Virus record (IMG/VR): IMGVR_UViG_3300020190_000004
Length of the DNA stretch: 64,000 bases
From: a virus
Taxonomy: Duplodnaviria > Caudoviricetes
Direction: 5' to 3' (one strand)
Shown in pieces: positions 36,610-50,177 of this stretch (positions are counted from its first letter, which is position 1; the number at the start of each line of letters is the position of its first letter). The notes under the pieces are model-generated. The model was not told the DNA's origin. It was given only the letters and a program-made list of their open reading frames with translations, and made no database searches. The position numbers and the translations under genes were made by a program.

Positions 36610-38376
36610 TTATGTAGTGTAAGGTAGACGGATAAAGTCATAATAAACATGCTTGTCATATGCTGACTTTATCTCAGTCCAGAAGCGCTGAACGCACTCC
36701 GGAACTTCCTTACAAAACTCATGATATGAATCTTTCTCAACAGCTTGGATAAACTTCTTAAAAGATTTTGAAGATGCATATGTAATATCAATATCCGGGA
36801 CATCATCACCAAACATTGCTCGCATAGCATTTTGTTCCAACTCAACAAATTTCTTATCTCTCTCAAAGTAAGTAATTGTGCAAGGGTTAAAATCTTGAGA
36901 CAGAACTTTATATATGTTGGATATTAGAGGATGAGTTGATATCTTGTAGCCGATAAATAAGTCGTGATAATCTTCAATAAACTTTGACAAGATCTTGCGA
37001 ATTGTTGGCAATTCCAAAACAAAATCACGATTAGCACTAAATACATCATGTATTAAAAAGCAACGATGTTTGTTAAGTTTCATTAATCTTTCTGCTTCAA
37101 GAATAACCGAGTTATTGAGTTTTGAACAATCAACAACTATAACGTTAACGTCTTCCTTGCCTTTAGGATTTTTCCTCGGGGAACCAAAGAAAGACTGCAG
37201 CAACAGAACTGCTTTTTCATAATCAACTTCCTTCTTGGGTTTTTCACTGTCATCAGCTTCGCGCAAGATAGTGTTAAATTCCAAAAAGCTGTAATCATCA
37301 GATATGATAGAATTAATTTCTTCTATCTTGGAGTTAAACTCATTAACTACCATTTCGCTTAGCAGTCCGCTAGGATACTTTGGTTTCCTGAGATTCGTTA
37401 AAAATACGGTAAACAGATATTCATATTTGCCGTTAGATTCAATGATTGCTCGTGTCTTTGGATTCTTAACCCATTTACCGTTGAACAATCCACTCTTATC
37501 CAGGAATTTAGGTCTCTCTAAGTCAGACTCTAGAAAGTCACGCCCTCTTCTGTCAACAAATTCGTTAAACACCTCAGAAACCAGCTCGATGTATGCTTCA
37601 TCGGGGTGGTGAGCAACCGGCTTGTGTTCATCAAGTCTCATTGAGTTTATGTGCTCGCAGATGTCGAGCAATAAGATGTCAAAAAGATGACTGCGTTTCT
37701 CAACTCGTCTTTCTTCTTCTATAACATCAGCGATCTTAAACAGTTCAGAGCCTGATTCTATTACAAGAGCTTCAATGTTATTGCTTTGTGTATTGAGTTT
37801 ACCGCTTGTGTAAACACTTGATTCATTAAGAGAAACCAATTCATATTCATGCTTAGCCATTCTAACTAAACTATCAATCGTTTCACTATCAAGTCTTCCT
37901 TCAAAGACAGGCATGTTTGACTCAACTCCAAAGATTCCGCCCCAGCGTTCAAAGATCTTGTTGTCTTTAACTTCATTGGTAACATCCCATTGACGATTGC
38001 GAACAGTAATGTCTGTAAGCATTAACCCATTCTTTGGGCGACGATCATACTCGGTGTTAAGAGGTTTTTTATTGGGAAACCAAGAGAAACCAAACCTGTG
38101 GCGAGGTGGTATTGCTTTCTTAATGTCAGCAGGCAGATTCTCAATATAAGAGATTGCTTGCTCGTATAGATCATTGACTGTGCGATCTATTTTTGATAAA
38201 GGTGCTTTGCCGTTCTTACCGTAGAAGTAGATTTTGTAATCATGTGGGTTCTTTTCAAAAGCGAATCGATACGCGTCGAACTTTTCTGTTACTCTAATCT
38301 CTCCTTCCAGTACCTCACGGAGACCTTTTTCTCCGACCTTTTTGTAGAGGTCCCGAATGTTTTTTATTCCGGCCAT
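36610..38376 (-). CDS. RNA-ligase-like nucleotidyltransferase domain protein with degenerate C-terminal Rossmann-like domain
   Basis: VTEKFDA resembles ligase motif I (KxDG); later PVFEG.L and IEALVI resemble motifs III/IV; no leader. Confidence 0.5.
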   Translation of the reverse strand: MAGIKNIRDLYKKVGEKGLREVLEGEIRVTEKFDAYRFAFEKNPHDYKIYFYGKNGKAPLSKIDRTVNDLYEQAISYIENLPADIKKAIPPRHRFGFSWFPNKKPLNTEYDRRPKNGLMLTDITVRNRQWDVTNEVKDNKIFERWGGIFGVESNMPVFEGRLDSETIDSLVRMAKHEYELVSLNESSVYTSGKLNTQSNNIEALVIESGSELFKIADVIEEERRVEKRSHLFDILLLDICEHINSMRLDEHKPVAHHPDEAYIELVSEVFNEFVDRRGRDFLESDLERPKFLDKSGLFNGKWVKNPKTRAIIESNGKYEYLFTVFLTNLRKPKYPSGLLSEMVVNEFNSKIEEINSIISDDYSFLEFNTILREADDSEKPKKEVDYEKAVLLLQSFFGSPRKNPKGKEDVNVIVVDCSKLNNSVILEAERLMKLNKHRCFLIHDVFSANRDFVLELPTIRKILSKFIEDYHDLFIGYKISTHPLISNIYKVLSQDFNPCTITYFERDKKFVELEQNAMRAMFGDDVPDIDITYASSKSFKKFIQAVEKDSYHEFCKEVPECVQRFWTEIKSAYDKHVYYDFIRLPYTT

Positions 38377-38393
38377 TTATGTTTGTTTTATAG

Positions 38394-38765
38394 TTATATT
38401 TTTCCTGTTAAGCGTATTCTTTTTTCGTCATCATCAACTAAATGATGTCCTACAACATCTTCAATTACTTCTGCCATTTTCTTAGTCTTATCACCAGCTG
38501 GTGGTGTCTGAATTTCCACAGAACCGTTATAGTAAGTTGGAAGTTTTTTTGCCTTTGCATCAAATCCTGCAGAGTTCAAGGCTTTTGCTATTTCCTCAGC
38601 TTCGTCAAACATAATTGTTCCTATCTCTAAGTGGTCGCGATAGTTTAACAGAGTTATAGTAGAAACTTCATGACCGTTTACTACTTCTCCGAGTTCAATA
38701 CGACTCATGTCTACAAGCTTCTTGCCTTCATTTAAGAAACTTTCAAATGTGTGTAGATGTTTCAT
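38394..38765 (-). CDS. Leader-bearing putative internal head protein
   Basis: Starts MKHLHTFESFLNE. Confidence 0.7.
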   Translation of the reverse strand: MKHLHTFESFLNEGKKLVDMSRIELGEVVNGHEVSTITLLNYRDHLEIGTIMFDEAEEIAKALNSAGFDAKAKKLPTYYNGSVEIQTPPAGDKTKKMAEVIEDVVGHHLVDDDEKRIRLTGKI

Positions 38766-38777
38766 AGCTTACTTGTT

Positions 38778-39215
38778 TTATTCAACTGCAATCTCAACGC
38801 CACCGCTTCCTGTAGAATAAGCGGTAATGCTTATTCGAGAACCGTCTGATAACATTATTCTTACATAAGAATTTTGTCCATCTTCGTCTTCAAGAATAGC
38901 TTTAATCTTCTTTCCTATATGATCCTTTAATGAAGGGTCGGTAGTTCTTGCATCTTCATTAAGCTCATCTTCGTTCAAGCTCTCTTTTACTAGAACCGAT
39001 TGCATACCAAATCTTTCTTTAGCCAATTGTATAGCCATTCTACTTTTTGGCGTATCGTCTAACTCAAAAACTGTAGGCCTTACCTGGTCATATTGGATCT
39101 TATTGCCATCAAGGTCCTTTTTGAACGATGAAACTGCTTTGGAGGCTAGACTAACTGACAGTTTCTTTCCTGAGTTTTCATTTAAGAAGCTTTCAAATGT
39201 GTGTATGTGTTTCAT
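38778..39215 (-). CDS. Leader-bearing putative internal head protein, two domains
   Basis: Starts MKHIHTFESFLNE; internal ESLNEDELNE. Confidence 0.7.
   Translation of the reverse strand: MKHIHTFESFLNENSGKKLSVSLASKAVSSFKKDLDGNKIQYDQVRPTVFELDDTPKSRMAIQLAKERFGMQSVLVKESLNEDELNEDARTTDPSLKDHIGKKIKAILEDEDGQNSYVRIMLSDGSRISITAYSTGSGGVEIAVE
39184..39215. repeat. 32-bp leader repeat copy 2
   Basis: Identical to 23880..23911. Confidence 0.95.
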
Positions 39216-39229
39216 ACTAATTCTATTTT

Positions 39230-39601
39230 TTATTTTTTGCCAAACATATCGGTTTCTCTACTACTTGGTCGTTTTGTTTTGCCAGCTTGTATAATTGATT
39301 CCAATTCATCGTATAGATCTTCGGCTTTTGTTATATCTTTTTTGTCTACTCTAAAGTAACCTTTATTAGTATTCATAAAATAATGGTCATCTTTGTTAGC
39401 AACAAAGAAAGTAGACGCTGGAGAAAAAGCAAAAGCTAAATTGACTGCTCTCACCTGGCCATTAGTAATTTCTATGGTAGAAGAACCACCTTTTAAGAGT
39501 TTTGCAAGTTTATCTAGTATTGCATCACCTGTGTTTTTTGCTCCTTCTAAATAAACAATCTTTTCATTTAAGAAGCTTTCAAATGTGTGTATGTGTTTCA
39601 T
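39230..39601 (-). CDS. Leader-bearing putative internal head protein
   Basis: Internal ATG at 39601 begins MKHIHTFESFLNE; track start 39622. Confidence 0.7.
   Translation of the reverse strand: MKHIHTFESFLNEKIVYLEGAKNTGDAILDKLAKLLKGGSSTIEITNGQVRAVNLAFAFSPASTFFVANKDDHYFMNTNKGYFRVDKKDITKAEDLYDELESIIQAGKTKRPSSRETDMFGKK
39570..39601. repeat. 32-bp leader repeat copy 3
   Basis: Identical to 23880..23911. Confidence 0.95.
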
Positions 39602-39608
39602 TGTAATA

Positions 39609-39905
39609 CTATATTTTTGCAATTGAAGTTACTTTCTTGCCTTTTTTCTCCGCATCATTAGGGTCTGCGTAGTAGAGAAGGTTGGCCTGAATCAGCCTAT
39701 TGAAAATCTCGTCTTTTACAATCTCAAAGTCAATGCTATCAGAAGAGTTTTCCCATGTTTCAGCAACATACTCTGGGTCAATCCATCCATACCCTGCCTT
39801 AATGTTCTTTACCATGTTGGCAAAGTCCAGCTCAAAAGTTTTAACCGCACCTTCATTAAGAGTGGCTTCATTCAAGAAGCTTTCAAATGTGTGTATGTGT
39901 TTCAT
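39609..39905 (-). CDS. Leader-bearing putative internal head protein
   Basis: ATG at 39905 begins MKHIHTFESFLNEATLNE. Confidence 0.7.
   Translation of the reverse strand: MKHIHTFESFLNEATLNEGAVKTFELDFANMVKNIKAGYGWIDPEYVAETWENSSDSIDFEIVKDEIFNRLIQANLLYYADPNDAEKKGKKVTSIAKI
39874..39905. repeat. 32-bp leader repeat copy 4
   Basis: Identical to 23880..23911. Confidence 0.95.
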
Positions 39906-40192
39906 TTTAGATTCCATGTTCTTTTGTCATCCATATCAAGTATTTCAATGCCTAATTGCTTAACAGTATTTTCTAAATTAGATTGTTCTTCCTGATCTCC
40001 GCTTTTTATGTATTCAATAACATCTCTGAATGATTGAAAAAAATGCTTTTCTCGCATCTGTGTTTTTATCTTATCCCAATTGTAATAAATTGCATGAAGC
40101 AGACCGCTAACACCAGCGGAAGTTAGCGCTAATTCATTTATTTCTTGTTCATTCAAGAAGTTTTCGAATGTGCTTATGTGTTTCATGTCCAT
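39902..40192 (-). CDS. Leader-bearing putative internal head protein
   Basis: Starts MDMKHISTFENFLNEQEINE. Confidence 0.7.
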   Translation of the reverse strand: MDMKHISTFENFLNEQEINELALTSAGVSGLLHAIYYNWDKIKTQMREKHFFQSFRDVIEYIKSGDQEEQSNLENTVKQLGIEILDMDDKRTWNLK

Positions 40193-40195
40193 GTA

Positions 40196-40204
40196 GTATA
40201 TATT
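40196..40204 (-). promoter_or_regulatory. Late promoter variant AATATATAC
   Basis: Immediately upstream of the ATG at 40192. Confidence 0.4.
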
Positions 40205-41091
40205 TATGCCAGGTCAGACGGAAAAGGAAGCTTGGCGTCTGTCAGCTTTTGCTTAAACTCCGTCATGATATCTTCCCGCTTATCAGGGAACTTAAAGTCT
40301 CCGCCGTCAATCAGACCACGCAAACTTTCATAGGTCATGATCTCAGAAACCTTGTGACCACCGTTAAAGAGTAGTTCCACTATCTCCTGCGGAACCCGCG
40401 TAATATCTTTGTCAAACGCTCGAAGAAGGTCTGCATTTTTTTTCAGCCCGCGTGCACCTTCAAAGGTTTTGCGTACTTGTACAACTCCCTGATTCATACG
40501 TATCACATATGCCTTGTACTCAGCAGTTTCACCTTTGCCGGTTTGCTTGGTGATCTCGTAAAAGCAATTTCCAATTGCGGCCATCAGCAATATGTTTCTG
40601 TAAGCACCTTTGTACTGTGATTCGCCTGCTCGAAAGTCTGGCGAGTGGTAGATAAACTTACTCCATTCCAGGTCAATCGACATCATTAAATCTACTTGGC
40701 CAATTCCGTTTGCTGAATCCCCGGCAACAGGAACGCCAATGCTTACTTGCTGTAACCCTTTTTGCATTAAGGTGGAATATCCTAAAGACATTAACTTTTC
40801 ATCTAATGCCATCAATGAATTTTCCAAAGAGACTCCTAAGAAACCAGCAATCTTGTCAGCCGAGACCGCGATATCTATATCTCCGGAAGTAGCTTCCGGT
40901 AATTTCTTACCCGCACTTCCAATTACTGCAGCATCATCACCAATTCCTACCAATCCGATTTGAGGAAAAATGTTCTTTACAATCCAATCCACAGTAGGCT
41001 GAACTTGGTTCTGTTGAAAAGGTACAGCATTCTCAATAGAGTTGCCACTTTCAAGAATGAATTGTTCAAACAACTTGACGTACTGCCTCAC
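40204..41091 (-). CDS. Leader-bearing Pol-beta-superfamily nucleotidyltransferase
   Basis: GTG start (M)RQYVKLFEQFILE; hG-S motif VIGSAG, SGDIDIAV, third Asp in QVDLM. Confidence 0.75.
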   Translation of the reverse strand: MRQYVKLFEQFILESGNSIENAVPFQQNQVQPTVDWIVKNIFPQIGLVGIGDDAAVIGSAGKKLPEATSGDIDIAVSADKIAGFLGVSLENSLMALDEKLMSLGYSTLMQKGLQQVSIGVPVAGDSANGIGQVDLMMSIDLEWSKFIYHSPDFRAGESQYKGAYRNILLMAAIGNCFYEITKQTGKGETAEYKAYVIRMNQGVVQVRKTFEGARGLKKNADLLRAFDKDITRVPQEIVELLFNGGHKVSEIMTYESLRGLIDGGDFKFPDKREDIMTEFKQKLTDAKLPFPSDLA

Positions 41092-41624
41092 TAGAATCCT
41101 GCCTTTTGTGCCTCTTTGCGGTCTAACCACTTTGCGTTAACTACGTCGTACCAGATGTTTGAATCACTTGACCCAGGAAGAATAAAGTTAGTCCCGTTAG
41201 AACCTCCGCTTGTGTGCGTGTAAGAGTAGTTTAGGTTTGTCCAAATGCATGGTTCAAACTCAAAGTCTGAACCATCTTCAGCGGTAGCTTTTGAAATCTT
41301 TGGAAAGCTTCCGCCGCCAAAGAAGGAAAGATATACCTCTTTGAACCCATACTGCATGATGCCCAATGCATCACCTGTCACAGGCTTAGATACCAATTTG
41401 ATACGGTTACCCGCGTCTTCAATAGCAAAGTCAGTTGGCCAGTCCACGCCTTTATCCTTAAGGAAAGTTGCTAACGCTGGTCCTGCATTTTCCAGGATAT
41501 CAGCCTTAAGCGTAGCCTCGTCTTTGAATTTGTCATCACTAACGTACTTTACGTTTTCGTTAAGGTCAGCAGCTTCATTCACACCTTTGTTGATGTAAGT
41601 TTCAAAAGTTTTTAAGTGTTTCAT
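41091..41624 (-). CDS. Leader-bearing putative internal head protein
   Basis: Starts MKHLKTFETYINKGVNEAADLNE. Confidence 0.7.
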   Translation of the reverse strand: MKHLKTFETYINKGVNEAADLNENVKYVSDDKFKDEATLKADILENAGPALATFLKDKGVDWPTDFAIEDAGNRIKLVSKPVTGDALGIMQYGFKEVYLSFFGGGSFPKISKATAEDGSDFEFEPCIWTNLNYSYTHTSGGSNGTNFILPGSSDSNIWYDVVNAKWLDRKEAQKAGF

Positions 41625-41883
41625 TGTATTTTGTTATTTTGACTATTAAATCAGTGGTGCCGGGTATCACGCGATGGATAACGCCGGCAGGTATTTTAAT
41701 CACTGTATATATCTTTTCTGGTAGTTGGTTATCAAACTGAAATTGCCAATCATTTTCGTTAAGAGGTTCAACGATTCTGTCCTCTTCATCCCAATGCCAT
41801 TTATATTCTGACCAGTCAGTATTTACAAAAAAAGTCCGTATGACTACGGACTCATTGATTTTTTCTTCTTTATAAGGTTTCAT
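41602..41883 (-). CDS. Small cupin-like protein
   Basis: WHWDEEDR.V...W.FQFD..LP...IP.G..HRV pattern; start at 41883 coupled to the holin stop (TAATG). Confidence 0.6.
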   Translation of the reverse strand: MKPYKEEKINESVVIRTFFVNTDWSEYKWHWDEEDRIVEPLNENDWQFQFDNQLPEKIYTVIKIPAGVIHRVIPGTTDLIVKITKYNETLKNF

Positions 41884-42050
41884 TAAGCTTTGTCTACGAT
41901 TGACCAAATTGTACCAGTTAATGTGATAACACCACCGATGATTTCAGTCACAGTTGTTTCGTCAGTTAAGCCTTTCATTACCACGATACCACCTACGAAT
42001 GTAAGAGTATGACGGATGATACCTAGAATCTGTTCTTTTGTTAGTTTCAT
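41883..42050 (-). CDS. Putative small holin (55 aa, two TM), missed by ORF track
   Basis: Manual translation MKLTKEQILGIIRHTLTFVGGIVVMKGLTDETTVTEIIGGVITLTGTIWSIVDKA; resembles Pam3 gp28-type putative holins. Confidence 0.75.
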   Translation of the reverse strand: MKLTKEQILGIIRHTLTFVGGIVVMKGLTDETTVTEIIGGVITLTGTIWSIVDKA

Positions 42051-42071
42051 TTTTTCTATTTTATTTTTTTT

Positions 42072-42080
42072 GTATATATC
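42072..42080 (-). promoter_or_regulatory. Putative late promoter GATATATAC
   Basis: About 21 nt upstream of the holin ATG at 42050. Confidence 0.6.
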
Positions 42081-42619
42081 TACCAGGGTGCATCGGACTG
42101 AAGTCCTAACTGCTTATTAAAGAGCGTGCTGGCGTAACAAGCCCAGAACCCCGCGGTAGTAGGGTCCATCTTTTTTTGTAAATCGCACTGTTGGCGTGCC
42201 CAGAAAGATGCAGAAGCCACAGGATCGTCATTCTTGATGGAAAGACCCGTGGTGTCTCCCCATTGAATTTGCATTGCCAAGATATTTCCATCTTCATCTT
42301 CTTTCCCGCTGTTGTGATACACCGTAAACTTTTTATCTCCACCACGAAATGGTGTGTCGAGTTCTACGTCAATCATTTTGCCGTCAGGTGTTTCAAACTT
42401 TGCCTTTTTACCCACTTCCAGATTCTTGGCCATCCAAGCAGCTTTATCGGAGAGTATGATGTTATCTTCGTCCCAGTATTTCTTTGTCTCTTCAAAAAGA
42501 TCTTTATAGGCTTGACTGCCTAAACGGTAGACAGAATTGGTTATGTCCAACCCATTTTCCATGTGGTAGCGGAATCCTTCGGAGACCTGGAAGTCTTCAA
42601 ATGTCTTTACGTATTTCAT
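42080..42619 (-). CDS. Leader-bearing protein with conserved phage domain (DUF6321-like)
   Basis: Starts MKYVKTFEDFQVSE; payload KKF.VY...GD..GLSIK.DDP...SF.AR..CD...TAGFW.C. Confidence 0.7.
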   Translation of the reverse strand: MKYVKTFEDFQVSEGFRYHMENGLDITNSVYRLGSQAYKDLFEETKKYWDEDNIILSDKAAWMAKNLEVGKKAKFETPDGKMIDVELDTPFRGGDKKFTVYHNSGKEDEDGNILAMQIQWGDTTGLSIKNDDPVASASFWARQQCDLQKKMDPTTAGFWACYASTLFNKQLGLQSDAPW

Positions 42620-43742: not shown

Positions 43743-43748
43743 TCTAAT

Positions 43749-44117
43749 TTATTTATTCATCTCTTGAGTCTTCTTCTTTAACTCTTCGAGAAAGTTTGTC
43801 CATATCACATTAGCAGCTTTCAGGTTTTTCTTCTTTTCCGGGTCCTTGGTCCTTTCAATAGCAACCTTTCCACGCTGCTGCATCACCAAGGCAGCTTGCA
43901 CCTTGTGCGCATGCTCTCGGTCAATGCCTTTAATAATCTCAATGCCTTTTTCCGCCGTCTCAGCGTCTTTGAAGCCCAAGCCATGAATTGTGCCTTCTGG
44001 ATCCTCGTCAGTGTACAAATCCGAGTGCTTGCTTGAACCGGCTGGTTGACCTGGTTTTCTAGGGGTTCTTTTATCAGCTTCCGCAATCCAAGATTCGTAT
44101 GTCTTTACGTATTTCAT
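43749..44117 (-). CDS. Leader-bearing conserved phage protein
   Basis: Starts MKYVKTYESWIAE; HSDLYTDEDP.GTI.GLGFKD motif. Confidence 0.7.
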   Translation of the reverse strand: MKYVKTYESWIAEADKRTPRKPGQPAGSSKHSDLYTDEDPEGTIHGLGFKDAETAEKGIEIIKGIDREHAHKVQAALVMQQRGKVAIERTKDPEKKKNLKAANVIWTNFLEELKKKTQEMNK

Positions 44118-44154
44118 TTTTGGTTAGCGCGCTTTGTATTTTTTGTCATTCACT

Positions 44155-44658
44155 TTAAGAAAGCAATTTAATAGCTTTCGGTGGTATCTTGCCCAGATAT
44201 ACAATTTCATCCGATTGCTTGTAGTAATCATCTCTTGATATCTTTTTATCAGCTTTTACATCAATCATTAGTTTAGGTGGTATCTCAATTCCTATTGAAA
44301 ATAAATTGGGATCTAGTTGTGTACCGTCTATCTGCAACAATACTCCATCATACTCGTATCTACGCGGTAAGTAATGAAAACTCACAATATCTGATACATT
44401 GTCCAAAGATGACAGCCAAACTCCTTCGAACAATTCACCTTTCAATCCTCCTCCGTGAGTACCAGCTTTTGGGCGAGAGGGTATCAATCCTTCCTTTTCT
44501 ACCTTATCATAGTAAGCTTGACGCATCACTAAATGGTATAAAGGCTGTTTTGTGTTAAAAGGTTCATCAGATTGGATAGATTGCAAATAATCTAACCCAA
44601 CTCGCATATCTTTATTGCCTTCATCCAAGAAGCTCTCGTATGTCTTTACCCACTTCAT
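44155..44658 (-). CDS. Leader-bearing ADP-ribosyltransferase/Tpt1-like fold protein
   Basis: Starts MKWVKTYESFLDE; LYH...EGL.P, GVWLSS, VLLQID, EIVY.G.IPP..I. Confidence 0.6.
   Translation of the reverse strand: MKWVKTYESFLDEGNKDMRVGLDYLQSIQSDEPFNTKQPLYHLVMRQAYYDKVEKEGLIPSRPKAGTHGGGLKGELFEGVWLSSLDNVSDIVSFHYLPRRYEYDGVLLQIDGTQLDPNLFSIGIEIPPKLMIDVKADKKISRDDYYKQSDEIVYLGKIPPKAIKLLS
44626..44658. repeat. 33-bp leader repeat, second subfamily, copy 1
   Basis: CAAGAAGCTCTCGTATGTCTTTACCCACTTCAT, identical at 45997..46029. Confidence 0.95.
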
Positions 44659-44951
44659 CTCTTGCTGATCTTGTTACTTGAAATGGCTCTTTGCCTGCTA
44701 CACTTAAACCTGGCTATCTCTTCGTCTCTCTTGTGTAGGTGTTTCTGACTTACACCGCTGTTAACACGCTCCCTCCAAAGATTAAAACTTTTTCTCTTTA
44801 ATTCAGCACGCATCAACTTAATAGTTTCAGATTCGCTGAGACCAAACTGAGCCTTGATTGCCTCAAAAGGTGTTCTGTCCTCCCACGCCATTTCTATGAT
44901 GCGATCTACATTCTCACTTGATATGCTCTTGTATGTCTTTACGCATTTCAT
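44655..44951 (-). CDS. TIGR03643/DUF2805-like protein with degenerate leader
   Basis: DRIIEMAWEDRTPFEAI..QFGL.E...I.LMR..LK..SF.LWR.RV; preceded by MKCVKTYKSISSE. Confidence 0.8.
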   Translation of the reverse strand: MKCVKTYKSISSENVDRIIEMAWEDRTPFEAIKAQFGLSESETIKLMRAELKRKSFNLWRERVNSGVSQKHLHKRDEEIARFKCSRQRAISSNKISKR

Positions 44952-45253
44952 TAGTCTTGCTTATCTTGTTGATATTGCCAAAGTTCTTCATAAGAAGTCA
45001 TCCATCCGTTTTCTTTGGCAATTCTTTCAGTATTACTGTTTGCTTGCAATAGAAAAGAAATTACTGCATCAAAAGCTTTTTTGAAGTCAGCTTCTTTAAC
45101 GCGATCCCAATAACCAACACCTATGTAGTCTTTAATCACATAGAATGGATATGCCGGGTCTTTTACGCTTTTGGTTCTGCGAGTTTGCAAATGAACAGAC
45201 TTTGGATCCGCATTTTCATTCAAAAAACTCTCGTATGTCTTTACGTAATTCAT
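44951..45253 (-). CDS. Leader-bearing putative internal head protein
   Basis: Starts MNYVKTYESFLNE. Confidence 0.7.
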   Translation of the reverse strand: MNYVKTYESFLNENADPKSVHLQTRRTKSVKDPAYPFYVIKDYIGVGYWDRVKEADFKKAFDAVISFLLQANSNTERIAKENGWMTSYEELWQYQQDKQD

Positions 45254-45258
45254 ATTTC

Positions 45259-46029
45259 TTAAAATTCATTCCAAAATTTAGCTATACGGTCATACACACG
45301 TTTTTGGTCTTCTTTAGATATCATTTTTAACCATGTCCATTCTTCTGGATAGATTTCATTCAATATAAAGTAAATGAAATCGTTGAGGTTATCAAAATGT
45401 TTTGTAGGGTCGCCGTAATCATTGTAAACTCGATTTAGCGCGGTATTTAGGTGTGTATTGATTTCAGCATTTAGTTGGTGATACTTTTCTTGCGGCAATT
45501 TTCCGTTTTCGTCAGCAAACTTTTTAACAAAATCGTCCAGTTGTCGATTCATAGCCTCGCGGTATTTATCGCCATACTCAGTTGCATCAAATAAGTGATG
45601 TACTTCATGATTGATGGCTCTTACAAATTCTCCGCTCCAGATTCTTTCTGGTGCTTTCATCATAGTCTCAATCAAATCTTGCAATTCCTTTACATAGTCT
45701 TTGTCAAAATCTCCGTCGTTGTAAGCAAGCTCAACAAGATTGTATCGGTACTTTGGTTTTCTAAAGTAATGAGCAAGTCCTAACGTTATGTCCAGTGTAT
45801 CATAATTTATTGATGCCGCGTCATGCCTATCTGGATCTATGGTAACATTAAATTCAACGCCGTCTATCGAAAATATGTAGTCGTCCTCAAATTTAACCAG
45901 CTGTGCTGCAATAGCAGCTGCTTTGCTTTTTAGCGTTGATAAAACTTTGTCAACCATTTTGTTCGCTTTATCAAACCTCTGAACAAAACTTTCATTCAAG
46001 AAGCTCTCGTATGTCTTTACCCACTTCAT
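45259..46029 (-). CDS. Leader-bearing zincin-like (HExxH) protein
   Basis: Starts MKWVKTYESFLNE; AINHEVHHLFD followed by a downstream AE. Confidence 0.65.
   Translation of the reverse strand: MKWVKTYESFLNESFVQRFDKANKMVDKVLSTLKSKAAAIAAQLVKFEDDYIFSIDGVEFNVTIDPDRHDAASINYDTLDITLGLAHYFRKPKYRYNLVELAYNDGDFDKDYVKELQDLIETMMKAPERIWSGEFVRAINHEVHHLFDATEYGDKYREAMNRQLDDFVKKFADENGKLPQEKYHQLNAEINTHLNTALNRVYNDYGDPTKHFDNLNDFIYFILNEIYPEEWTWLKMISKEDQKRVYDRIAKFWNEF
45997..46029. repeat. 33-bp leader repeat, second subfamily, copy 2
   Basis: Identical to 44626..44658. Confidence 0.95.
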
Positions 46030-46703
46030 AATTGTATAAATCTTCCAGGAGAGTCACTGCTTAACTTTCCGTTCTTTATGACAAACCGGTCTTTTTGTAT
46101 CTCAGCAGTCCAGTCGCCAGGAAGCCTGTGTCCTTGTTTCTTTATATATTCCAGGTAGAGTCTTCCACGCTTTGACTGCGCAACAGGAACTCCTTCTTCA
46201 ATGTCTTCCAATTTAGGTGCTATGTGTATCTCTTCCAGTTTTACCCATTTCCACTCGGATATATCTTTGACCGTGCTGGCAATAATATCTGTCACTGTGG
46301 AAATTACACGAAACTGTTCACCGTAATTAGTAATGGCTTCTCGATCCGTACCAATTTTACTATTTACAGTATCAAAGGCTATACCTATCACCAAGTTGTA
46401 ATCTTGTGGTGTTCGACCGGGACGTTTACCCCCAAAACTAATGTGTATATAGCGTGTAAACTCACCAACGATCTTTACTACGTATGTAGCCTTATCACTC
46501 TTAAACTCATAAGTAATCTCCGGTAGTTTATCCCATTTGCCTGGAACCATTTCACCCTTGTCTAGGTTGGATATCGTAGTCATCCAACCACGATCTACAG
46601 ACACAGAACCAGTGCGTTTCCAAGGAAACGGTGATGTGCCTTCGCCAATCTCGTTAAGCTGCTGTTCCAGTAAAAAGTATTCAAATGTGTTTAAGTGCTT
46701 CAT
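46026..46703 (-). CDS. Leader-bearing putative internal head protein
   Basis: ATG at 46703 begins MKHLNTFEYFLLEQQLNE. Confidence 0.7.
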   Translation of the reverse strand: MKHLNTFEYFLLEQQLNEIGEGTSPFPWKRTGSVSVDRGWMTTISNLDKGEMVPGKWDKLPEITYEFKSDKATYVVKIVGEFTRYIHISFGGKRPGRTPQDYNLVIGIAFDTVNSKIGTDREAITNYGEQFRVISTVTDIIASTVKDISEWKWVKLEEIHIAPKLEDIEEGVPVAQSKRGRLYLEYIKKQGHRLPGDWTAEIQKDRFVIKNGKLSSDSPGRFIQL

Positions 46704-46704
46704 C

Positions 46705-47106
46705 TTAATCCATAGAATCCGAAAGTCTCCACAAATCATGTAAGAACAAATCCGCGTCTTTCATGTTTTTAATCTCTGGAAACTCTTGTTTTGCTTTCTT
46801 AATAAATTCTTCCACGGTTTTGGATTCTTGACGAAGAATGTCCAATTCGCTCATGTAACCTTCAAATAAGTAACTTTCAAAAGACTCTGTAATCGCACCA
46901 AATTCGTTGAACATATTCAAGTTAATCATTACAGGACTACCGCTTTTAGGTTTTGCGGTAATCGTAGTCTTATTGTTTGCGGTAACAGTCATTCGTGTGC
47001 CGCGGTATACAATCTCTGAATCTACGGGAATCTTCTCAAAGTCTTCCAGTGTCATCTTTTGTCCATAGTTCTTTATGAATCCTTCAAATGTTTGTAAGTG
47101 TTTCAT
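46705..47106 (-). CDS. Leader-bearing two-module protein
   Basis: Starts MKHLQTFEGFI; internal second leader-like ITESFESYLFEG. Confidence 0.7.
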   Translation of the reverse strand: MKHLQTFEGFIKNYGQKMTLEDFEKIPVDSEIVYRGTRMTVTANNKTTITAKPKSGSPVMINLNMFNEFGAITESFESYLFEGYMSELDILRQESKTVEEFIKKAKQEFPEIKNMKDADLFLHDLWRLSDSMD

Positions 47107-47702
47107 TACTTGATGTATTTTGTTAGTTCACTCCAGTATTTCCACAATTCTTTGGGCATCATTTGCTGAAATGCTTTTTCGTCTCCAGCTTTAATAGCCT
47201 CTCGAACTTTAGTACCACTTGCACCGTCAGCATCACGAGCATCAACCATTTTAACAGCAAAAGCAGGATCAACGGCGACGTCGGTTTTAGGACTTGTGAC
47301 GTATGCAACTTGACGAGTATAGTCAGTAAAACGATCACTTCCACAGCCAAGTCCTTGCGGTTCGTATCCTTGTTCTCGTAAGAATTTAACCATTAGTGGA
47401 ATAACCGTCTTGTCTCCTTTTGGGTATATGAAGTAGTCCGCAATAAACGCATTTGCTTTTACTACATCTGCTCCCATCTTTTGCAAAATATCATCAGGAA
47501 ACGGCGATTCTTCGCGAGCAGAAAGTATCTGTAACGGAATTACAGGCAGTCCAAATTCTTTTGAAGCACGCTCAAGTGCCGCTAAATGCCCGTTATGAAA
47601 AGGCTGAAACCTTCCGGGAAAAAAGATTACTTTCTTCCCGTCTGTGATTTCAGATATGATCGCTTCATACAGAAAACTCTCAAATGTTTTTACGTGGTTC
47701 AT
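47106..47702 (-). CDS. Leader-bearing cytidylyltransferase-family (HIGH) nucleotidyltransferase
   Basis: Starts MNHVKTFESFLYE; PGRFQPFHNGH, GCGSDR, SGTKVRE. Confidence 0.85.
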   Translation of the reverse strand: MNHVKTFESFLYEAIISEITDGKKVIFFPGRFQPFHNGHLAALERASKEFGLPVIPLQILSAREESPFPDDILQKMGADVVKANAFIADYFIYPKGDKTVIPLMVKFLREQGYEPQGLGCGSDRFTDYTRQVAYVTSPKTDVAVDPAFAVKMVDARDADGASGTKVREAIKAGDEKAFQQMMPKELWKYWSELTKYIK

Positions 47703-47710
47703 TGTAGCTA

Positions 47711-48229
47711 TTATTGTTCATTCGTTGTTATTTCTCCTTTAGCTTCTAAAAACACACGTCTTACATTGGCGGGTTGTGCAATTTTCCATGCAGTTCTTCG
47801 CGCCTGATAAAGTCGGCTTTTTGCTATTCTTGAAACACTTACAGAATTGTTTTGGTTTCCACCTAATACATGGTAATACTTATCATCTTCACCGACGTAT
47901 ATTCCTACGTGGCCTCCGCCGTTTCTCTTAAAAGTAAGAATATCTCCTAACATCGGAGTTTCTACGAGATTTCCGTACTTAGCCCAGTTTAGAGCCCATA
48001 GTGGTCTTTCAACCACTTGAACATTCGCAACATAGGCGCAATGAGCAATAAAAAGACCGCACCAAGGAATTTCATCTTCGGTATAAACTTTTTGAATACC
48101 AAGTTCTTTTGCCCACCCCAGTATCGTAGGGTTGTGATTCTTTCCGACTATTTCTTTAACACCAAGATTCTTAACAGCTTCTACAAGTATCTTTGGAGAT
48201 TTCTCATTTTGTAACCATTCGTAAGCCAT
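47711..48229 (-). CDS. CHAP/NlpC-P60-like peptidoglycan hydrolase (TIGR02594-like)
   Basis: DEIPWCGLF, ALNW, GD...F.R.GGGHVG, LGGNQ.N.V; no leader. Confidence 0.85.
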   Translation of the reverse strand: MAYEWLQNEKSPKILVEAVKNLGVKEIVGKNHNPTILGWAKELGIQKVYTEDEIPWCGLFIAHCAYVANVQVVERPLWALNWAKYGNLVETPMLGDILTFKRNGGGHVGIYVGEDDKYYHVLGGNQNNSVSVSRIAKSRLYQARRTAWKIAQPANVRRVFLEAKGEITTNEQ

Positions 48230-48246
48230 AATCTTTTTTATTTAAT

Positions 48247-48858
48247 TTATGTAGTTATATCAGTTGATTCAATTAGTGTGTAGGAAAACGCGTTGCCGTG
48301 TATCTTAGCGGCCTTGCGACAGATTGCCATGAACGCGTCAAAGTCTTTTACTCTCTTAAATACTTGACACCCTTCACTCCAGTTTTCAACCCAAGTTGAA
48401 TCTTGCCCAGCTTTGTGAATGTTGATTCCAAACATTCCTGTGTCAGTTACGCTTTCGTTAAAAGTTAAGTTTTTGTCAGCATCGCGGTAGACGGTTACGT
48501 TTCCGTTTCGCTGACAGAGCGCGCTGTATTTTCCCTGGTGTAAGTCTATCTTCCACACTCCACGGTACTGTCCTGGCACGAGTCGAGCCACGCCCTTCCT
48601 GTTGTGAAACTGCTGAACGCCTTTTTTACCTGGGTCCGTCGTCGCGTTCCAGCAGTAAAACTGCTCAACGCCTTTTTCGTCCTTGTATGAAATTGTTAAG
48701 CAATCATCAAAGACGTTAGTCACTTTGTCTGCGATTGAAGGAGCGTTGTTACGAACTCCTACGATATTGACATCGTAAGTTTTGTTTGCGGTGTCTTCAA
48801 ACCACTTGTAACCTTTAGCTACCACAGCAGTTTTTATTTGTTCTCTTGTGTAGCACAT
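48247..48858 (-). CDS. L,D-transpeptidase-like (YkuD-fold) putative endolysin
   Basis: NIVGVR, FDD, TTDPG, L.PGQY, INIH.AG....WSEGCQV (His/Cys catalytic motif); no leader. Confidence 0.7.
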   Translation of the reverse strand: MCYTREQIKTAVVAKGYKWFEDTANKTYDVNIVGVRNNAPSIADKVTNVFDDCLTISYKDEKGVEQFYCWNATTDPGKKGVQQFHNRKGVARLVPGQYRGVWKIDLHQGKYSALCQRNGNVTVYRDADKNLTFNESVTDTGMFGINIHKAGQDSTWVENWSEGCQVFKRVKDFDAFMAICRKAAKIHGNAFSYTLIESTDITT

Positions 48859-48869
48859 ATTCTTTGTTT

Positions 48870-50177
48870 TTATTTTTTGTATGCAAGTATTGAACGGATC
48901 TGATGTAGAGGGGCAAAGATTCCTGTGTACTTGTAGAGCTTTCCTTTGAAAACAAATGTAATACCTTCAGTAGGAACAATGCTTTCTAAACCACCAGCAG
49001 CTGCAACCCGGTTAAGTTCCACCTCCAATTTAGCAACATCTTTTTCGTCGCCGTTTGTTTTAACGGATGCAATTGTGCTGTCTATTTCTCGTCGCATTGC
49101 TGCGGCAGCATCAGTTGGATTAGCGCTTAAGAATGCACTAATGTTTTTCATCATTTCTGTACCAATCTCCAAGAATAGACTTTCAAGCGGAGCATAAACA
49201 GCTCTCTTTAATTCTTTTTCTTTTGACTTTTCTAAATCAGTATACCATGTAACAACTTCTGGCGCAAGATCCTTCTTCATCATTGCAGCGGTGTATGATT
49301 TATCAATACCAGCAATTCGTCGAGCAAGACCGTCTAAAAACTGCGGGGGTATAGCAATACCTGCAGATTTTGCTTCTTCTTCTAATATCTTCTTACCCAT
49401 CCCCAAAGCATAATCTCCAACCGTAGAAGACGGTGTTGATCCGCTTTCTTTCATGATAGTATCAAGCTTGCCGTTGTAGTAAGAAGCGCGCGCTTTGGTA
49501 TTTGGAAATGGCACCGATGCAATATCTTGTGGGCCACGAACGTAGAATTTCTTTTGAGCGGCAGCGTTTGCGTCAGCAATAAGTTTTCCTAAATCACGGC
49601 CAGCTTGTTTATCTTCACCTACTGCATTTCCACCTTCATCATGTTCAACTACTCCGTGAAAGACAAGCATGTCTTGACCGTAAGGAACGGTGTTTTGTGT
49701 AATAGGTGTAATCACTTCTACGCTAGCAAACTTCTTGCCTTCGTCAAAGAATTTCTTTTTGTCTGCATCGCTAAGAGCACCGATAGCACCAGAGAGATCC
49801 GCCATTGCAGCGTTGTACGCAGTTTCTATATCACCGCGGCCAGCAAAAAGAGCAGCAAGACCCGCAGAATCTAGAGCAGCTTCACCAGCGTTCTTTAAAT
49901 GAATCTTGTTTCTTGCGGCAATAAGTTTACCGTTTTTCCAGGAAATCATAATGTTTTGTCCGTCAGTCTTCTCCTGAACAAAGTTGTCAGGCGTAAAAGC
50001 ACCTTCAACGGTTGCATTAATCATTTCTCGCAGATCTCCCATCGTTAAACCCACGTCTTCAAATGGATGGCTAATGTGTCCATACGCGCCTCCTTCATTA
50101 AGAACACTCTCTAACACCCAAGAAGTGTTAAACGTGCGTTCCTCGTTTAGAAATTGTGTATATGACTTTAGACTCAT
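48870..50177 (-). CDS. Leader-bearing ligase-like nucleotidyltransferase
   Basis: Starts MSLKSYTQFLNE...VLNE; GH.SHPFED, QEKTDGQN (motif I), EG.TF...G..YK.TG.F. Confidence 0.65.
   Translation of the reverse strand: MSLKSYTQFLNEERTFNTSWVLESVLNEGGAYGHISHPFEDVGLTMGDLREMINATVEGAFTPDNFVQEKTDGQNIMISWKNGKLIAARNKIHLKNAGEAALDSAGLAALFAGRGDIETAYNAAMADLSGAIGALSDADKKKFFDEGKKFASVEVITPITQNTVPYGQDMLVFHGVVEHDEGGNAVGEDKQAGRDLGKLIADANAAAQKKFYVRGPQDIASVPFPNTKARASYYNGKLDTIMKESGSTPSSTVGDYALGMGKKILEEEAKSAGIAIPPQFLDGLARRIAGIDKSYTAAMMKKDLAPEVVTWYTDLEKSKEKELKRAVYAPLESLFLEIGTEMMKNISAFLSANPTDAAAAMRREIDSTIASVKTNGDEKDVAKLEVELNRVAAAGGLESIVPTEGITFVFKGKLYKYTGIFAPLHQIRSILAYKK

What the first reader, a model, noticed from the sequence alone, without database searches (positions are those of the whole stretch)
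36610..50177. Three classes of nucleotidyl-transfer enzymes among the tagged cargo
Seen: a Pol-beta-type NTase (40204..41091; GS, DxD, D), a HIGH-type cytidylyltransferase (47106..47702; FHNGH) and a KxDG ligase-like protein (48870..50177) all carry the leader. An untagged paralog-like ligase protein (36610..38376, TEKFDA) has a degenerate Rossmann-like C-terminus. Known: T4 Rnl1/Pnk repair tRNAs cut by host anticodon nucleases; phage NAD-reconstitution pathways use HIGH-family adenylyltransferases; Pol-beta NTases make CBASS signals or nucleotidylate proteins. Inference: a pre-packaged kit for RNA repair, NAD or nucleotide-signal manipulation, or protein NMPylation at the moment of infection. 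The substrate cannot be read from sequence.
Basis: partly seen in the sequence, partly recalled or inferred. Interest (0 to 1): 0.65.

Follow-up and report, generated by a model that had tools for sequence, protein, structure and literature searches.

The report
Capsid-tagged split phage RNA-repair enzyme module
Three tagged enzymes of an uncultured T4-related giant phage are the separated parts of one widespread, unstudied phage module: an NAD-synthase-like adenylyltransferase, a new kind of RNA-ligase-like enzyme and an end-adding polymerase-beta-type enzyme, which probably mends broken RNA and probably travels inside the virus head.

Summary

- **Pol-beta gene (40204-41091):** the fold is confirmed (VIA Z 8.9 to Pol beta) and GS/DxD/D is invariant in 37 homologues.
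- **HIGH gene (47106-47702):** its closest solved relatives are archaeal/NadM NMN adenylyltransferases (profile E 1e-10), not cytidylyltransferases.
- **KxDG gene (48870-50177):** the model is confident (pLDDT 88.7) and its best matches are RNA ligases (Trl1, Rnl5, T4 Rnl1; Z 8.2-9.2). Motifs I, III, IIIa, IV and V are conserved. It has no Pfam family.
- **Untagged 588-aa protein:** a ligase-like N-terminal half plus a copy of the same HIGH domain that has lost HxGH.

The new result is that the three enzymes are not independent. Of 150 cluster representatives carrying the ligase domain, 100 also carry the HIGH domain in the same polypeptide. Two carry all three enzymes. Others add a P-loop kinase, an HD domain and a class II CCA-adding enzyme, which together look like a tRNA heal-and-seal set.

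These fusion proteins have their own N-terminal leader ending in LxE. In the three records checked they sit next to terminase and portal, and all eight related records tested encode a T4-type prohead protease. A homologous HIGH protein was found by mass spectrometry in cyanophage S-SZBM1 virions.

Substrate and packaging are still inferred. Other windows of this genome were already noted in this scan for the shared tag.

The parts
48870..50177 (-). Rnl-type ligase-like covalent nucleotidyltransferase (435 aa) of a family with no Pfam model. Leader 50142-50177. GGAYGHxxHPFE motif 50058-50093. Motif I EKTDGQ 49956-49973. Motif III SVEVI 49710-49724. Motif IIIa LVFHG 49653-49667. Motifs IV-V PTEGITFVFKGKLYKYTG 48921-48974. 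A helical insert of about 180 residues lies between motifs IIIa and IV.
   Evidence: AF2 pLDDT 88.7, pTM 0.84. All of the top 25 Foldseek PDB hits are ligases, nearly all RNA ligases. VIA Z 9.2 Trl1-LIG, 8.6 NgrRnl, 8.2 T4 Rnl1. Motif conservation. 1613 clusters at 50% identity. An intein sits inside motif I in P0339.
47106..47702 (-). NMNAT-like HIGH-superfamily adenylyltransferase (198 aa). Leader 47664-47702. GRFQPFHNGH 47586-47615. ESPFPDD 47490-47510. SGTKVR 47202-47219.
   Evidence: Pfam CTP_transf_like 3.8e-8. The family profile A5 against PDB gives NMN adenylyltransferases as the top 11 hits, led by 1f9a at E 1e-10. The domain is fused to the ligase domain in 100 of 150 representatives.
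40204..41091 (-). Pol-beta-superfamily nucleotidyltransferase (295 aa, GTG start). Leader 41050-41091. GSAGKK 40903-40920. GDIDIAVS 40861-40884. GQVDLMM 40681-40701.
   Evidence: Alignment A1. AF2 pLDDT 74, above 85 over residues 20-140. Foldseek hits Pol lambda/beta and Cid1 at E about 2e-4. VIA Z 8.9 Pol beta, 8.1 ASFV Pol X. Fused with the HIGH and ligase domains in P0472 and P0478.
36610..38376 (-). Untagged 588-aa protein. The N-terminal half is ligase-like (TEKFDAYRF 38263-38289). The C-terminal half is a degenerate copy of the HIGH domain: the HxGH site reads VDCSKLNNSV (37105-37134) and the SxTxxR site reads ASSKSFKK (36754-36777).
   Evidence: Distant full-length homologues have EEKLDGSRF and HSGH. 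They give sub-threshold Pfam RNA_ligase and DNA_ligase_A_M hits, and CTP_transf_like at 22.5 bits, above its cut-off. A profile of those homologues hits the tagged HIGH protein at E 1.4e-10. 20 of 30 ESM feature hits are RNA_ligase clusters.
43749..44117 (-). Tagged 122-aa protein, apparently the same domain that Pfam calls DUF5661 in the fusion proteins. In other phages it forms the N-terminal domain of the HIGH-ligase polyproteins.
   Evidence: phmmer finds it in 4 fusion proteins and jackhmmer in 14. Pfam DUF5661 occurs in 5 of 44 fusion proteins. The window protein itself gets no Pfam hit, so the DUF5661 label is inferred from where the matches lie.

Best explanation
The three tagged genes are the separated parts of one conserved phage module. 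Its constant core is an NMNAT-like HIGH adenylyltransferase paired with an RNA-ligase-type enzyme that forms a covalent lysyl-NMP intermediate. A Pol-beta-type enzyme that adds nucleotides to 3' ends is an optional third part.

Proposed mechanism (inferred):
- The module heals and seals broken RNA, most likely tRNA cut by host ribonucleases.
- The Pol-beta enzyme restores nucleotides lost from a 3' end, as RlaP or the CCA-adding enzyme does.
- The ligase takes AMP on Lys70 and joins a 5'-phosphate end to a 3'-OH end.
- The role of the NMNAT-like partner is unresolved. It either makes the dinucleotide cofactor (NAD+) or adenylylates a phosphomonoester end.

Each protein carries a T4-type capsid-targeting leader ending in (L/I)xE. 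The set is therefore probably loaded into the prohead, trimmed by the gp21-type protease and delivered with the DNA. It would then be present even if host defences block translation before the phage can express genes.

The untagged 588-aa protein is a second ligase-HIGH pair in fused form. Its catalytic motifs have decayed and it is probably not an enzyme.

Shown: folds, motifs, domain fusions, synteny, protease presence in relatives. Inferred: RNA as substrate, packaging, cleavage.
For: Folds and active sites: Pol-beta; HIGH, NMNAT-like; ligase, closest to RNA ligases.

Functional linkage:
- Of the 150 best cluster representatives, 87 are HIGH-ligase, 8 are ligase-HIGH, 1 is HIGH-ligase-HIGH and 1 is HIGH-ligase-ligase. 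P0472 is HIGH-PolB-ligase, P0478 is HIGH-ligase-PolB, and one more carries two ligase matches without HIGH.
- In close relatives L002-L012 the ligase, HIGH, Pol-beta and 588-aa genes lie within about 8 kb of each other. The HIGH and Pol-beta genes carry clear leaders; the ligase leader is weaker or obscured by the ORF call in some loci.

RNA context:
- Among 44 fusion proteins Pfam finds the class II CCA-adding head domain (best E 1.6e-64) with its RNA-binding domain, AAA_33/Zeta/KTI12-type P-loop kinases and HD.
- P0483 (1930 aa) reads HIGH, DUF5661, kinase, HD, CCA-adding enzyme, ligase.
- Pol-beta enzymes that act with RNA ligases in tRNA repair have a precedent in RlaP (PMC12776372, PMC7824862).
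- An intein sits exactly after the motif I lysine in P0339.

Packaging:
- The leader is shared by about 23 ORFs.
- Fusion proteins in other phages have their own conserved N-terminus ending in LxE. They lie next to terminase and portal in L032 and L044, and terminase and protease in Mel-JY01.
- Peptidase_S77 (T4 gp21 type) is present in 8 of 8 related records tested.
- The T4 capsid-targeting sequence is about 10 residues, and residues 8 and 10 govern its processing (PMC9026906).
- S-SZBM1_140 belongs to the same HIGH family (E 2e-17, N-terminus MRFRQFIIE). It was detected by LC-MS in CsCl-purified virions (PMC9146016).
Against: - No activity, substrate or virion data exist for this phage or its close relatives.
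- The structural Z-scores (8-9) lie in a range where fold is secure but specificity is not. Family X DNA polymerases top the Pol-beta list.
- No kinase, HD or other end-healing gene was detected in the window.
- Known ATP-dependent RNA ligases need no NMNAT partner, so the most constant feature of the module has no role in the repair model.
- No Tpt1/KptA was found in 5 related records.
- The tagged genes lie among replication genes here, not in the head module.
- The ligase-like neighbour of the S-SZBM1 virion protein was not among the virion proteins that paper lists.
Confidence: 0.45

Rival explanations
1. A DNA repair kit for the incoming genome. The Pol-beta protein fills gaps as a minimal family X DNA polymerase, the ligase seals nicks or joins genome ends, and the NMNAT-like enzyme supplies NAD+, including for the phage's own NAD-dependent DNA ligase.
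For: - The best structural matches of the Pol-beta protein are Pol beta (Z 8.9, 165 residues aligned) and ASFV Pol X (Z 8.1, 144 aligned), and these cover palm and thumb.
- DNA ligases also match the ligase model (Z 5.5-7.2).
- The window encodes a LigA-type NAD-dependent DNA ligase at 26380-28206.
- From general knowledge, ASFV pairs Pol X with a ligase.
Against: - RNA ligases outrank DNA ligases in both structure searches.
- The ligase has no OB domain.
- The domains fused to it are a tRNA-specific CCA-adding enzyme with its RNA-binding domain, and KTI12/AAA_33-type kinases.
- The scores of Pol X and the RNA uridylyltransferases differ by about one Z unit, which is within the method's error.
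Confidence: 0.15
2. The module serves NAD+ or nucleotide metabolism rather than nucleic-acid repair. The HIGH enzyme rebuilds NAD+ against NAD-depleting defences, and the ligase-like domain adenylylates a small molecule or a protein.
For: - The HIGH domain is closest to NMNATs: 1f9a E 1e-10, and the NadM enzymes 2qjt and 2qjo.
- Some fusion proteins place a P-loop kinase beside the HIGH domain, as NadR does.
- Phage NAD salvage through HIGH adenylyltransferases is established (PMC9503650, PMC7824862).
Against: - NadV/NAMPT was found in only 1 of 5 related records.
- The constant partner of the HIGH domain is a ligase-fold domain, and its motifs and nearest structures are nucleic-acid ligases.
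- CCA-adding domains occur in the same polypeptides.
Confidence: 0.12
3. The enzymes are what the folds say, but the shared N-terminus is not a packaging signal. The proteins act in the cytoplasm after ordinary expression, and the leader reflects shared translation-initiation or recombination cassettes.
For: - No virion data exist for this phage.
- The tagged genes lie among replication genes.
- An earlier first-reader note of this scan (e1-5367273) reports that leader subtypes are near-identical in DNA and clustered by position. I did not check this.
Against: - The leader matches the T4 capsid-targeting sequence in position, length and terminal (L/I)xE.
- A T4-type prohead protease is present in all 8 related records.
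- The fusion homologues have a different sequence with the same design, and lie beside terminase and portal.
- A family member is a measured virion protein (PMC9146016).
Confidence: 0.25
4. One reading: three unrelated activities that merely share a tag, for example manipulation of CBASS signals or NMPylation of host proteins.
For: - CD-NTases and the MenT toxin appear among the Pol-beta fold matches (Z 5.8-7.5).
- Pol-beta NTases are listed among the predicted protein-modifying domains of polyvalent phage proteins (PMC5512222).
Against: - All three domains occur in one polypeptide in two different domain orders.
- 100 of 150 representatives fuse the HIGH and ligase domains.
- Synteny is conserved in close relatives.
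Confidence: 0.05

Closest known systems
Phage T4 tRNA repair (Pnkp plus Rnl1) and fungal Trl1 (ligase, kinase and cyclic phosphodiesterase in one polypeptide)
   Same: The nucleotidyltransferase fold has motif I KxDG and motifs III, IIIa, IV and V. The best structural matches are Trl1-LIG and T4 Rnl1. Relatives fuse the ligase to a P-loop kinase and a phosphohydrolase, as Trl1 does.
   Different: There is no Pfam RNA-ligase match. A helical insert of about 180 residues lies between motifs IIIa and IV, so IV and V sit at the extreme C-terminus. A conserved GGAYGHxxHPFE motif lies upstream of motif I. The constant partner is an NMNAT-like domain, which no known RNA repair system has. The proteins carry a capsid tag.
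RlaP (PF10127), the RNA-ligase-associated Pol-beta nucleotidyltransferase, and class II CCA-adding enzymes
   Same: A Pol-beta-fold enzyme genetically coupled to an RNA ligase. RlaP adds one or two NMPs to damaged RNA 3' ends before ligation (PMC12776372). CCA-adding domains occupy the same position in some fusion proteins.
   Different: The window protein matches neither PF10127 nor PF01743. Its closest structures are family X polymerases and terminal uridylyltransferases.
Archaeal and NadM-type NMN adenylyltransferases (MJ0541, PDB 1f9a; Francisella and Synechocystis NadM)
   Same: GRFQPFHxGH, an (S/N)PF...E(K/R) motif and SGTxxR. These are the best PDB profile hits (E 1e-10 to 2e-6).
   Different: Scores are far below the NCBIfam equivalog cut-offs (26-31 bits against 127-181). 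There is no Nudix or ribosylnicotinamide kinase partner, and NadV is mostly absent. The domain is fused or linked to a ligase.
T4 capsid targeting sequence on the internal proteins IPI-III and Alt, removed by the gp21 prohead protease
   Same: A 10-14 residue N-terminal peptide ending in (L/I)xE, placed on otherwise unrelated proteins. Relatives encode a gp21-type protease.
   Different: The cargo here would be nucleic-acid enzymes, and the tagged set is far larger. Nothing has been measured.
Ligase-like plus 'cytitidyltransferase' gene pair of T4-like cyanophages (P-HM1 PHM1_161/162; S-SZBM1_141/140)
   Same: A KxDG protein lies next to a HIGH protein of the same family (E 2e-14 to 2e-17). 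The order, ligase then HIGH, is the same as in the 588-aa protein. The HIGH protein is a measured virion component in S-SZBM1.
   Different: The cyanophage ligase-like protein is too distant for profiles A2 or A3 to detect. Its function is also unknown, and it is annotated as hypothetical.

Membership tests
Covalent nucleotidyltransferase superfamily (ligases and capping enzymes): 435-aa protein | Motif I KxDG with the nucleotide-accepting lysine | tested here: met
   EKTDGQ at residues 69-74. D72 and G73 are invariant and K70 is at least 90% conserved. An intein is inserted directly after this lysine in P0339.
Covalent nucleotidyltransferase superfamily (ligases and capping enzymes): 435-aa protein | Motifs III, IIIa, IV and V in order, on the nucleotidyltransferase fold | tested here: met
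   E154, H174, E404-G405 and K416 are invariant. The fold matches RNA ligases at Z 7.2-9.2 with about 200 residues aligned, and nearly all of the top 25 Foldseek hits are RNA ligases. I assigned residues to motifs by pattern, not from a residue-level superposition.
Rnl1 and Rnl2 RNA ligase families as defined by Pfam | Sequence match to the family model | tested here: not met
   The window protein has no Pfam family at E up to 0.1. One of 32 relatives gives RNA_ligase at E 0.0064. PDB profile search finds nothing significant.
RNA ligase activity (functional class) | ATP-dependent (or other NTP-dependent) joining of RNA 5'-phosphate and 3'-OH ends | not testable with these tools
   Needs enzyme assays.
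HIGH-superfamily (CTP_transf_like) nucleotidyltransferases: 198-aa protein | HxGH and ISxTxxR signatures on a Rossmann-like fold | tested here: met
   H36-N-G-H39 and S162-G-T-K-V-R167. Pfam PF01467 scores 34 bits against a cut-off of 21. G30, R31, F32, P34, H39 and R167 are invariant in 31 sequences.
NMN adenylyltransferase (archaeal and NadM type) | Specific sequence membership | tested here: inconclusive
   The top 11 PDB profile hits are NMNATs, from E 1e-10 to 2e-6. The strong stretch, however, covers only 55-65 residues, and NCBIfam equivalog scores are far below their cut-offs.
Pol-beta nucleotidyltransferase superfamily: 295-aa protein | hG[GS], DxD and a third acidic residue on the minimal Pol-beta fold | tested here: met
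   G58-S59, D71/D73 and D134 are invariant. Every one of the top structural matches is a superfamily member.
RlaP (PF10127) and class II CCA-adding enzymes (PF01743) | Sequence match to the family model | tested here: not met
   No Pfam or NCBIfam hit for the window protein. PF01743 is present in other fusion proteins of the module.
T4-type capsid targeting sequence | N-terminal peptide of about 10-14 residues ending in (L/I)xE, on unrelated proteins | tested here: met
   The leader ends in FILE, FLYE and FLNE in the three genes.
T4-type capsid targeting sequence | A gp21-type (Peptidase_S77) prohead protease in the same phage | tested here: inconclusive
   No genome is held for the window and no protease lies in the window. 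It is present in 3 of 3 close relatives and 5 of 5 phages carrying the fusion.
T4-type capsid targeting sequence | Incorporation into the head and removal of the leader | not testable with these tools
   The only evidence is indirect: the homologous HIGH protein S-SZBM1_140 was found in purified virions (PMC9146016).
Ligase superfamily: 588-aa protein | Motif I and the ligase fold | tested here: inconclusive
   The window protein has KFDA where distant homologues have KLDG. Pfam hits are sub-threshold. 20 of 30 ESM feature hits are RNA_ligase clusters at a score of about 0.9. PDB profile searches find nothing.

The most novel reading that the evidence does not exclude
The NMNAT-like domain and the ligase domain form one catalytic unit of a kind not yet described. 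One form would be an RNA ligase that takes its AMP from NAD+, with the fused NMNAT rebuilding NAD+ from the released NMN and ATP. That would be the first NAD+-dependent RNA ligase. Another form would have the HIGH domain adenylylate or NAD-cap an RNA 5'-phosphate end, which the ligase domain then processes. In either form the unit would be delivered ready-made from the capsid, so that it works in cells whose translation or NAD+ pool a defence system has already shut down.
Probability: 0.12. Interest if true: 0.85.

Novelty: new variant of a known kind. Interest (0 to 1): 0.68.

Why it matters
RNA repair by phages (T4 Pnkp/Rnl1, RlaP, CCA-adding enzymes) is a known answer to tRNA-cleaving host defences. 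Three things here go beyond that.

1. **A new ligase family.** This RNA-ligase-like family has no Pfam model and I found no literature on it. It has at least 1,613 clusters at 50% identity and at least 556 stretches in IMG/VR, yet it appears in only three GenBank phage records.
2. **An unexplained partner.** The family is almost always joined to an NMNAT-like adenylyltransferase. No described repair pathway contains such a partner, so a step of RNA-end chemistry or cofactor supply may be unknown.
3. **Possible delivery in the capsid.** Leaders, gene position and one virion proteome suggest the enzymes ride in the head. That would be the first case of repair enzymes delivered with the genome, and it would make sense against defences that stop translation before the phage can make anything.

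A distant version of the ligase-HIGH pair is present in 469 phage records, mostly T4-like cyanophages, where it is annotated as hypothetical or 'cytitidyltransferase'. The question therefore touches abundant ocean viruses and can be tested with cultured phages.

Tried and rejected
**Searches that found nothing**
- Near-identical DNA in GenBank phages: no match.
- Single-sequence PDB searches for the ligase, Pol-beta and 588-aa proteins.
- PDB profile searches for A1, A2, A3 and A6.
- PHROGs, NCBIfam and Pfam for the ligase, Pol-beta and 588-aa proteins.
- Literature searches for DUF6267, Mel-JY01 and an NMNAT-RNA-ligase fusion. Burroughs and Aravind 2016 is not held.

**Leads that failed on testing**
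- DUF6267: the ESM Atlas suggested it for 23-24% of members of the neighbouring clusters. It matched none of the 32 family members in the Pfam copy at hand.
- 588-aa protein as a paralogue of the 435-aa ligase: rejected at sequence level. BLASTP found nothing. hhalign aligned only motif I, at E 0.14.
- BLASTP of the 588-aa C-terminus against the HIGH protein found nothing. The homology appeared only with a profile of distant members.
- Canonical NAD salvage: NadV is in 1 of 5 related records.
- A Trl1-style 2'-phosphate route needing a phage Tpt1: 0 of 5 records.
Not pursued.
- Kinase or HD homologues among the window's ORFs: none found by phmmer or jackhmmer against the fusion proteins.

- No genome is held for the window.

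Full report
**Setting.** The window is AT-rich and every gene lies on the - strand. It comes from a large phage with no close DNA relative in GenBank.
- It encodes a portal, SbcCD, a DnaB-type helicase, UvsX, topoisomerase II, an NAD-dependent DNA ligase, ribonucleotide reductase and a family B DNA polymerase split into two genes.
- No whole genome is held for it.
- Between about 23.4 and 51.2 kb, about 23 otherwise unrelated ORFs begin with the same peptide, of the type MKH(V/I)KTFESFLNE. A strict pattern finds 19 of them, all on the coding strand and all at ORF starts.

**Observation.**
- The Pol-beta gene starts at the GTG at 41091, which overlaps the upstream stop by one base. Its homologues are 294-295 aa.
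- G58-S59, D71-x-D73 and D134 are invariant in 37 sequences of 57-78% identity, as is the ESGN that follows the leader.
- The HIGH gene has GRFQPFHNGH and SGTKVR, and passes the Pfam CTP_transf_like threshold.
- The 435-aa gene has EKTDGQ. The 588-aa gene has TEKFDAYRF and no leader.

**Pol-beta protein.**
- The AF2 model has mean pLDDT 74, and above 85 over residues 20-140, which hold the motifs.
- Foldseek returns only Pol-beta-superfamily members: Pol lambda, Pol beta and Cid1 at E about 2e-4.
- An exhaustive VIA search gives Pol beta Z 8.9 (165 residues aligned), ASFV Pol X Z 8.1, terminal uridylyltransferases Z 7-8, MenT1 Z 7.5 and CdnE Z 7.0.
- The fold is secure. The substrate class is not, because these scores are effectively tied.
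- The protein matches neither RlaP nor the CCA-adding family by sequence.

**HIGH protein.**
- Single-sequence searches gave weak, mixed hits to PPAT, MJ0951 and MJ0541.
- A profile of 31 family members (A5) gave NMN adenylyltransferases as the top 11 PDB hits: MJ0541 at 1e-10, the Methanobacterium enzyme at 3e-9, and the NadM enzymes at 3.5e-7 and 2.3e-6. PPAT and NadD came behind them.
- Three motifs line up with NMNAT: GRFQPFHxGH, xSPFxxxE(K/R) and GY...P...SGTxxR.
- It is NMNAT-like, not a cytidylyltransferase. It falls far short of the NCBIfam equivalog cut-offs, so its real acceptor is open.

**Ligase-like protein.**
- It has no family in Pfam, PHROGs or NCBIfam.
- An exhaustive HMMER search of 1.84 billion cluster representatives found 1,613 relatives, 467 of them below 1e-30.
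- With an alignment of 32 standalone members (A3), AF2 gave pLDDT 88.7 and pTM 0.84.
- All of the top 25 Foldseek PDB hits are ligases, nearly all RNA ligases: Trl1-LIG, Rnl3, T4 Rnl1 and T4 Rnl2, at E about 1e-3 to 1e-2.
- VIA gives Trl1-LIG Z 9.2 (207 aligned), NgrRnl 8.6, T4 Rnl1 8.2, T4 Rnl2 7.9 and Rnl3 7.8. DNA ligases follow at 5.5-7.2 and capping enzymes at 5.3.
- The conserved residues fit the ligase motifs in order: K70-x-D72-G73 (I), E154 (III), H174 (IIIa), E404-G405 (IV) and K416 (V).
- A helical insert of about 180 residues lies between IIIa and IV. An extra conserved GGAYGHxxHPFE motif lies upstream of motif I.
- In the relative P0339 an intein is inserted exactly between the motif I lysine and TDG. 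This is typical of catalytic sites.

**The three enzymes are one module.** This is the main result.
- *Fusion of HIGH and ligase.* Most relatives of the ligase domain are long multidomain proteins. Scanning the 150 listed representatives with profiles of the window's own proteins gave 87 HIGH-ligase, 8 ligase-HIGH, 1 HIGH-ligase-HIGH, 1 HIGH-ligase-ligase, 1 with two ligase matches and no HIGH, and 50 with the ligase domain alone. Pfam independently finds CTP_transf_like in 31 of 44 fusion proteins.
- *All three in one chain.* P0472 reads HIGH, Pol-beta, ligase (1071 aa). P0478 reads HIGH, ligase, Pol-beta (912 aa). Two different domain orders make a chance join unlikely.
- *A cultured example.* Microcystis phage Mel-JY01 encodes a 639-aa HIGH-ligase fusion annotated 'cytidylyltransferase like protein'.
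- *Synteny.* In close relatives (L002-L012, 64-79% identity in the ligase) the ligase, HIGH, Pol-beta and 588-aa genes lie within about 8 kb. The HIGH and Pol-beta genes carry clear leaders.
- *A fourth part.* The tagged 122-aa protein at 43749-44117 forms the N-terminal domain of 14 fusion proteins. It appears to be the domain Pfam calls DUF5661 there.

**What the module does.** The extra domains in the fusion proteins point to RNA, and to tRNA in particular.
- They include the class II CCA-adding head domain (best E 1.6e-64) with its RNA-binding domain, AAA_33/Zeta/KTI12-type P-loop kinases, and HD.
- P0483 (1930 aa) reads leader, HIGH, DUF5661, kinase, HD, CCA-adding enzyme, ligase. That is a complete set for healing ends, rebuilding the 3' end and sealing.
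- The window's Pol-beta domain occupies the position that CCA-adding domains hold elsewhere.
- Coupling of an RNA ligase to a Pol-beta enzyme that restores lost 3' nucleotides is established for RlaP (PMC12776372), and is described as common in jumbo phages (PMC7824862).

The NMNAT-like partner has no place in any known repair scheme.
- It is not part of standard phage NAD salvage: NadV is in 1 of 5 related records.
- No phage Tpt1 accompanies it: 0 of 5 records.
- All members of this superfamily join an NMP to a phosphomonoester. It could therefore make NAD+ or adenylylate an RNA phosphate end. I cannot decide between these.

**The 588-aa protein.**
- Its family (97 hits) includes distant members with canonical EEKLDGSRF. 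These give sub-threshold RNA_ligase and DNA_ligase_A_M hits at the N-terminus. Two of them give CTP_transf_like above threshold at residues 475-521, with an HSGH motif.
- A profile of those distant members hits the window's tagged HIGH protein at E 1.4e-10 over its whole domain.
- In the window's clade motif I reads KFDA. One relative has M in place of K, and others vary the D. The HxGH site reads LNNS and the SxTxxR site reads SSKSFK.
- It is therefore a fused ligase-HIGH pair with decayed active sites, and probably not an enzyme. The ligase fold of its N-terminal half is likely but not shown.

**Packaging.**
- The leader has the position, length and terminal (L/I)xE of the T4 capsid targeting sequence. 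That sequence is about 10 residues, and residues 8 and 10 govern its processing (PMC9026906).
- The window holds no protease. Three close relatives each encode a Peptidase_S77 (T4 gp21-type) domain in an ORF of about 640 aa.
- Fusion proteins in unrelated phages begin with their own conserved peptide, for example MNKLTEWLTKPFLEE or MSDLSKFLVESILLGE.
- In L032 and L044 the fusion gene lies just upstream of terminase and portal. In Mel-JY01 it lies just upstream of terminase, with the prohead protease a few kb further on. All five such records tested encode Peptidase_S77.

**Link to T4-like cyanophages.**
- BFVD structure hits include a 591-aa 'cytidyltransferase-like' protein of Synechococcus phage S-PM2.
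- P-HM1 has a KxDG protein (PHM1_161) directly upstream of a HIGH protein (PHM1_162, profile E 2e-14).
- PHM1_161 has relatives in 469 phage records.
- In S-SZBM1 the HIGH protein SSZBM1_140 (E 2e-17, N-terminus MRFRQFIIE) was detected by LC-MS in CsCl-purified virions (PMC9146016).
- This is the only experimental support for packaging, and it concerns a distant family member.

**Verdict.**
- The three enzymes are one linked module, not three independent tools (confidence about 0.9).
- The module most likely repairs RNA (about 0.5).
- It is probably packaged in the capsid (about 0.6).
- The constant NMNAT-like partner is the unexplained part, and the most interesting one.

Earlier notes of this scan had already recorded the shared tag in other windows of this genome, and a protease-scaffold fusion. 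I treated both as leads. I tested the protease point only through relatives.

Noticed in passing
window 47711-48229 and 48247-48858: Two untagged genes separate the HIGH and ligase genes. One is a CHAP/NlpC-P60 peptidase that matches the C-terminus of the baseplate-hub/tail-lysozyme family phrog_1259 (E 4.7e-29). The other is a phrog_3000 endolysin-like protein (E 2.3e-32). Cell-wall hydrolases are an odd insertion into the split module.
   Followed up: no
window 44655-44951, 46705-47106 and 45259-46029: Other tagged cargo. One is a DUF2805 protein (E 9e-34). One gives a DUF5891 match (E 1.2e-6) that covers only its first 35 residues, so it may reflect the leader. One is a 256-aa protein with an HEVHH (HExxH, zincin-like) motif.
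   Followed up: no
P0339 (relative of 48870-50177); also P0119: An intein is inserted exactly between the motif I lysine and TDG of the ligase domain. P0440 looks like an ORF that begins inside such an intein.
   Followed up: partly
L085 (Prochlorococcus phage P-HM1) 2823-5916; L087 (Synechococcus phage S-SZBM1) 6989-10671: T4-like cyanophages conserve a KxDG ligase-like gene next to a HIGH 'cytitidyltransferase' gene, followed by a third gene of about 440 aa. The ligase-like gene has relatives in 469 phage records. In S-SZBM1 the HIGH protein and the third protein were found in virions.
   Followed up: partly
L052 17436-18719; L055 14483-14932: In phages that carry the fusion, a second ORF downstream of the portal has a similar N-terminal peptide (...IAEIEQE). 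It may be a scaffold or internal protein that uses the same signal.
   Followed up: no
G001 (contig behind L005) 79550-80371: One close relative of the window phage encodes a NadV-like nicotinamide phosphoribosyltransferase (E 2.2e-33). Four other related records do not.
   Followed up: no
By eye it has a YH...GL.PSR...GVWLS pattern that recalls Tpt1/KptA. No relatives were found in IMG/VR and no Pfam family matched, so I could not test it.
   Followed up: partly
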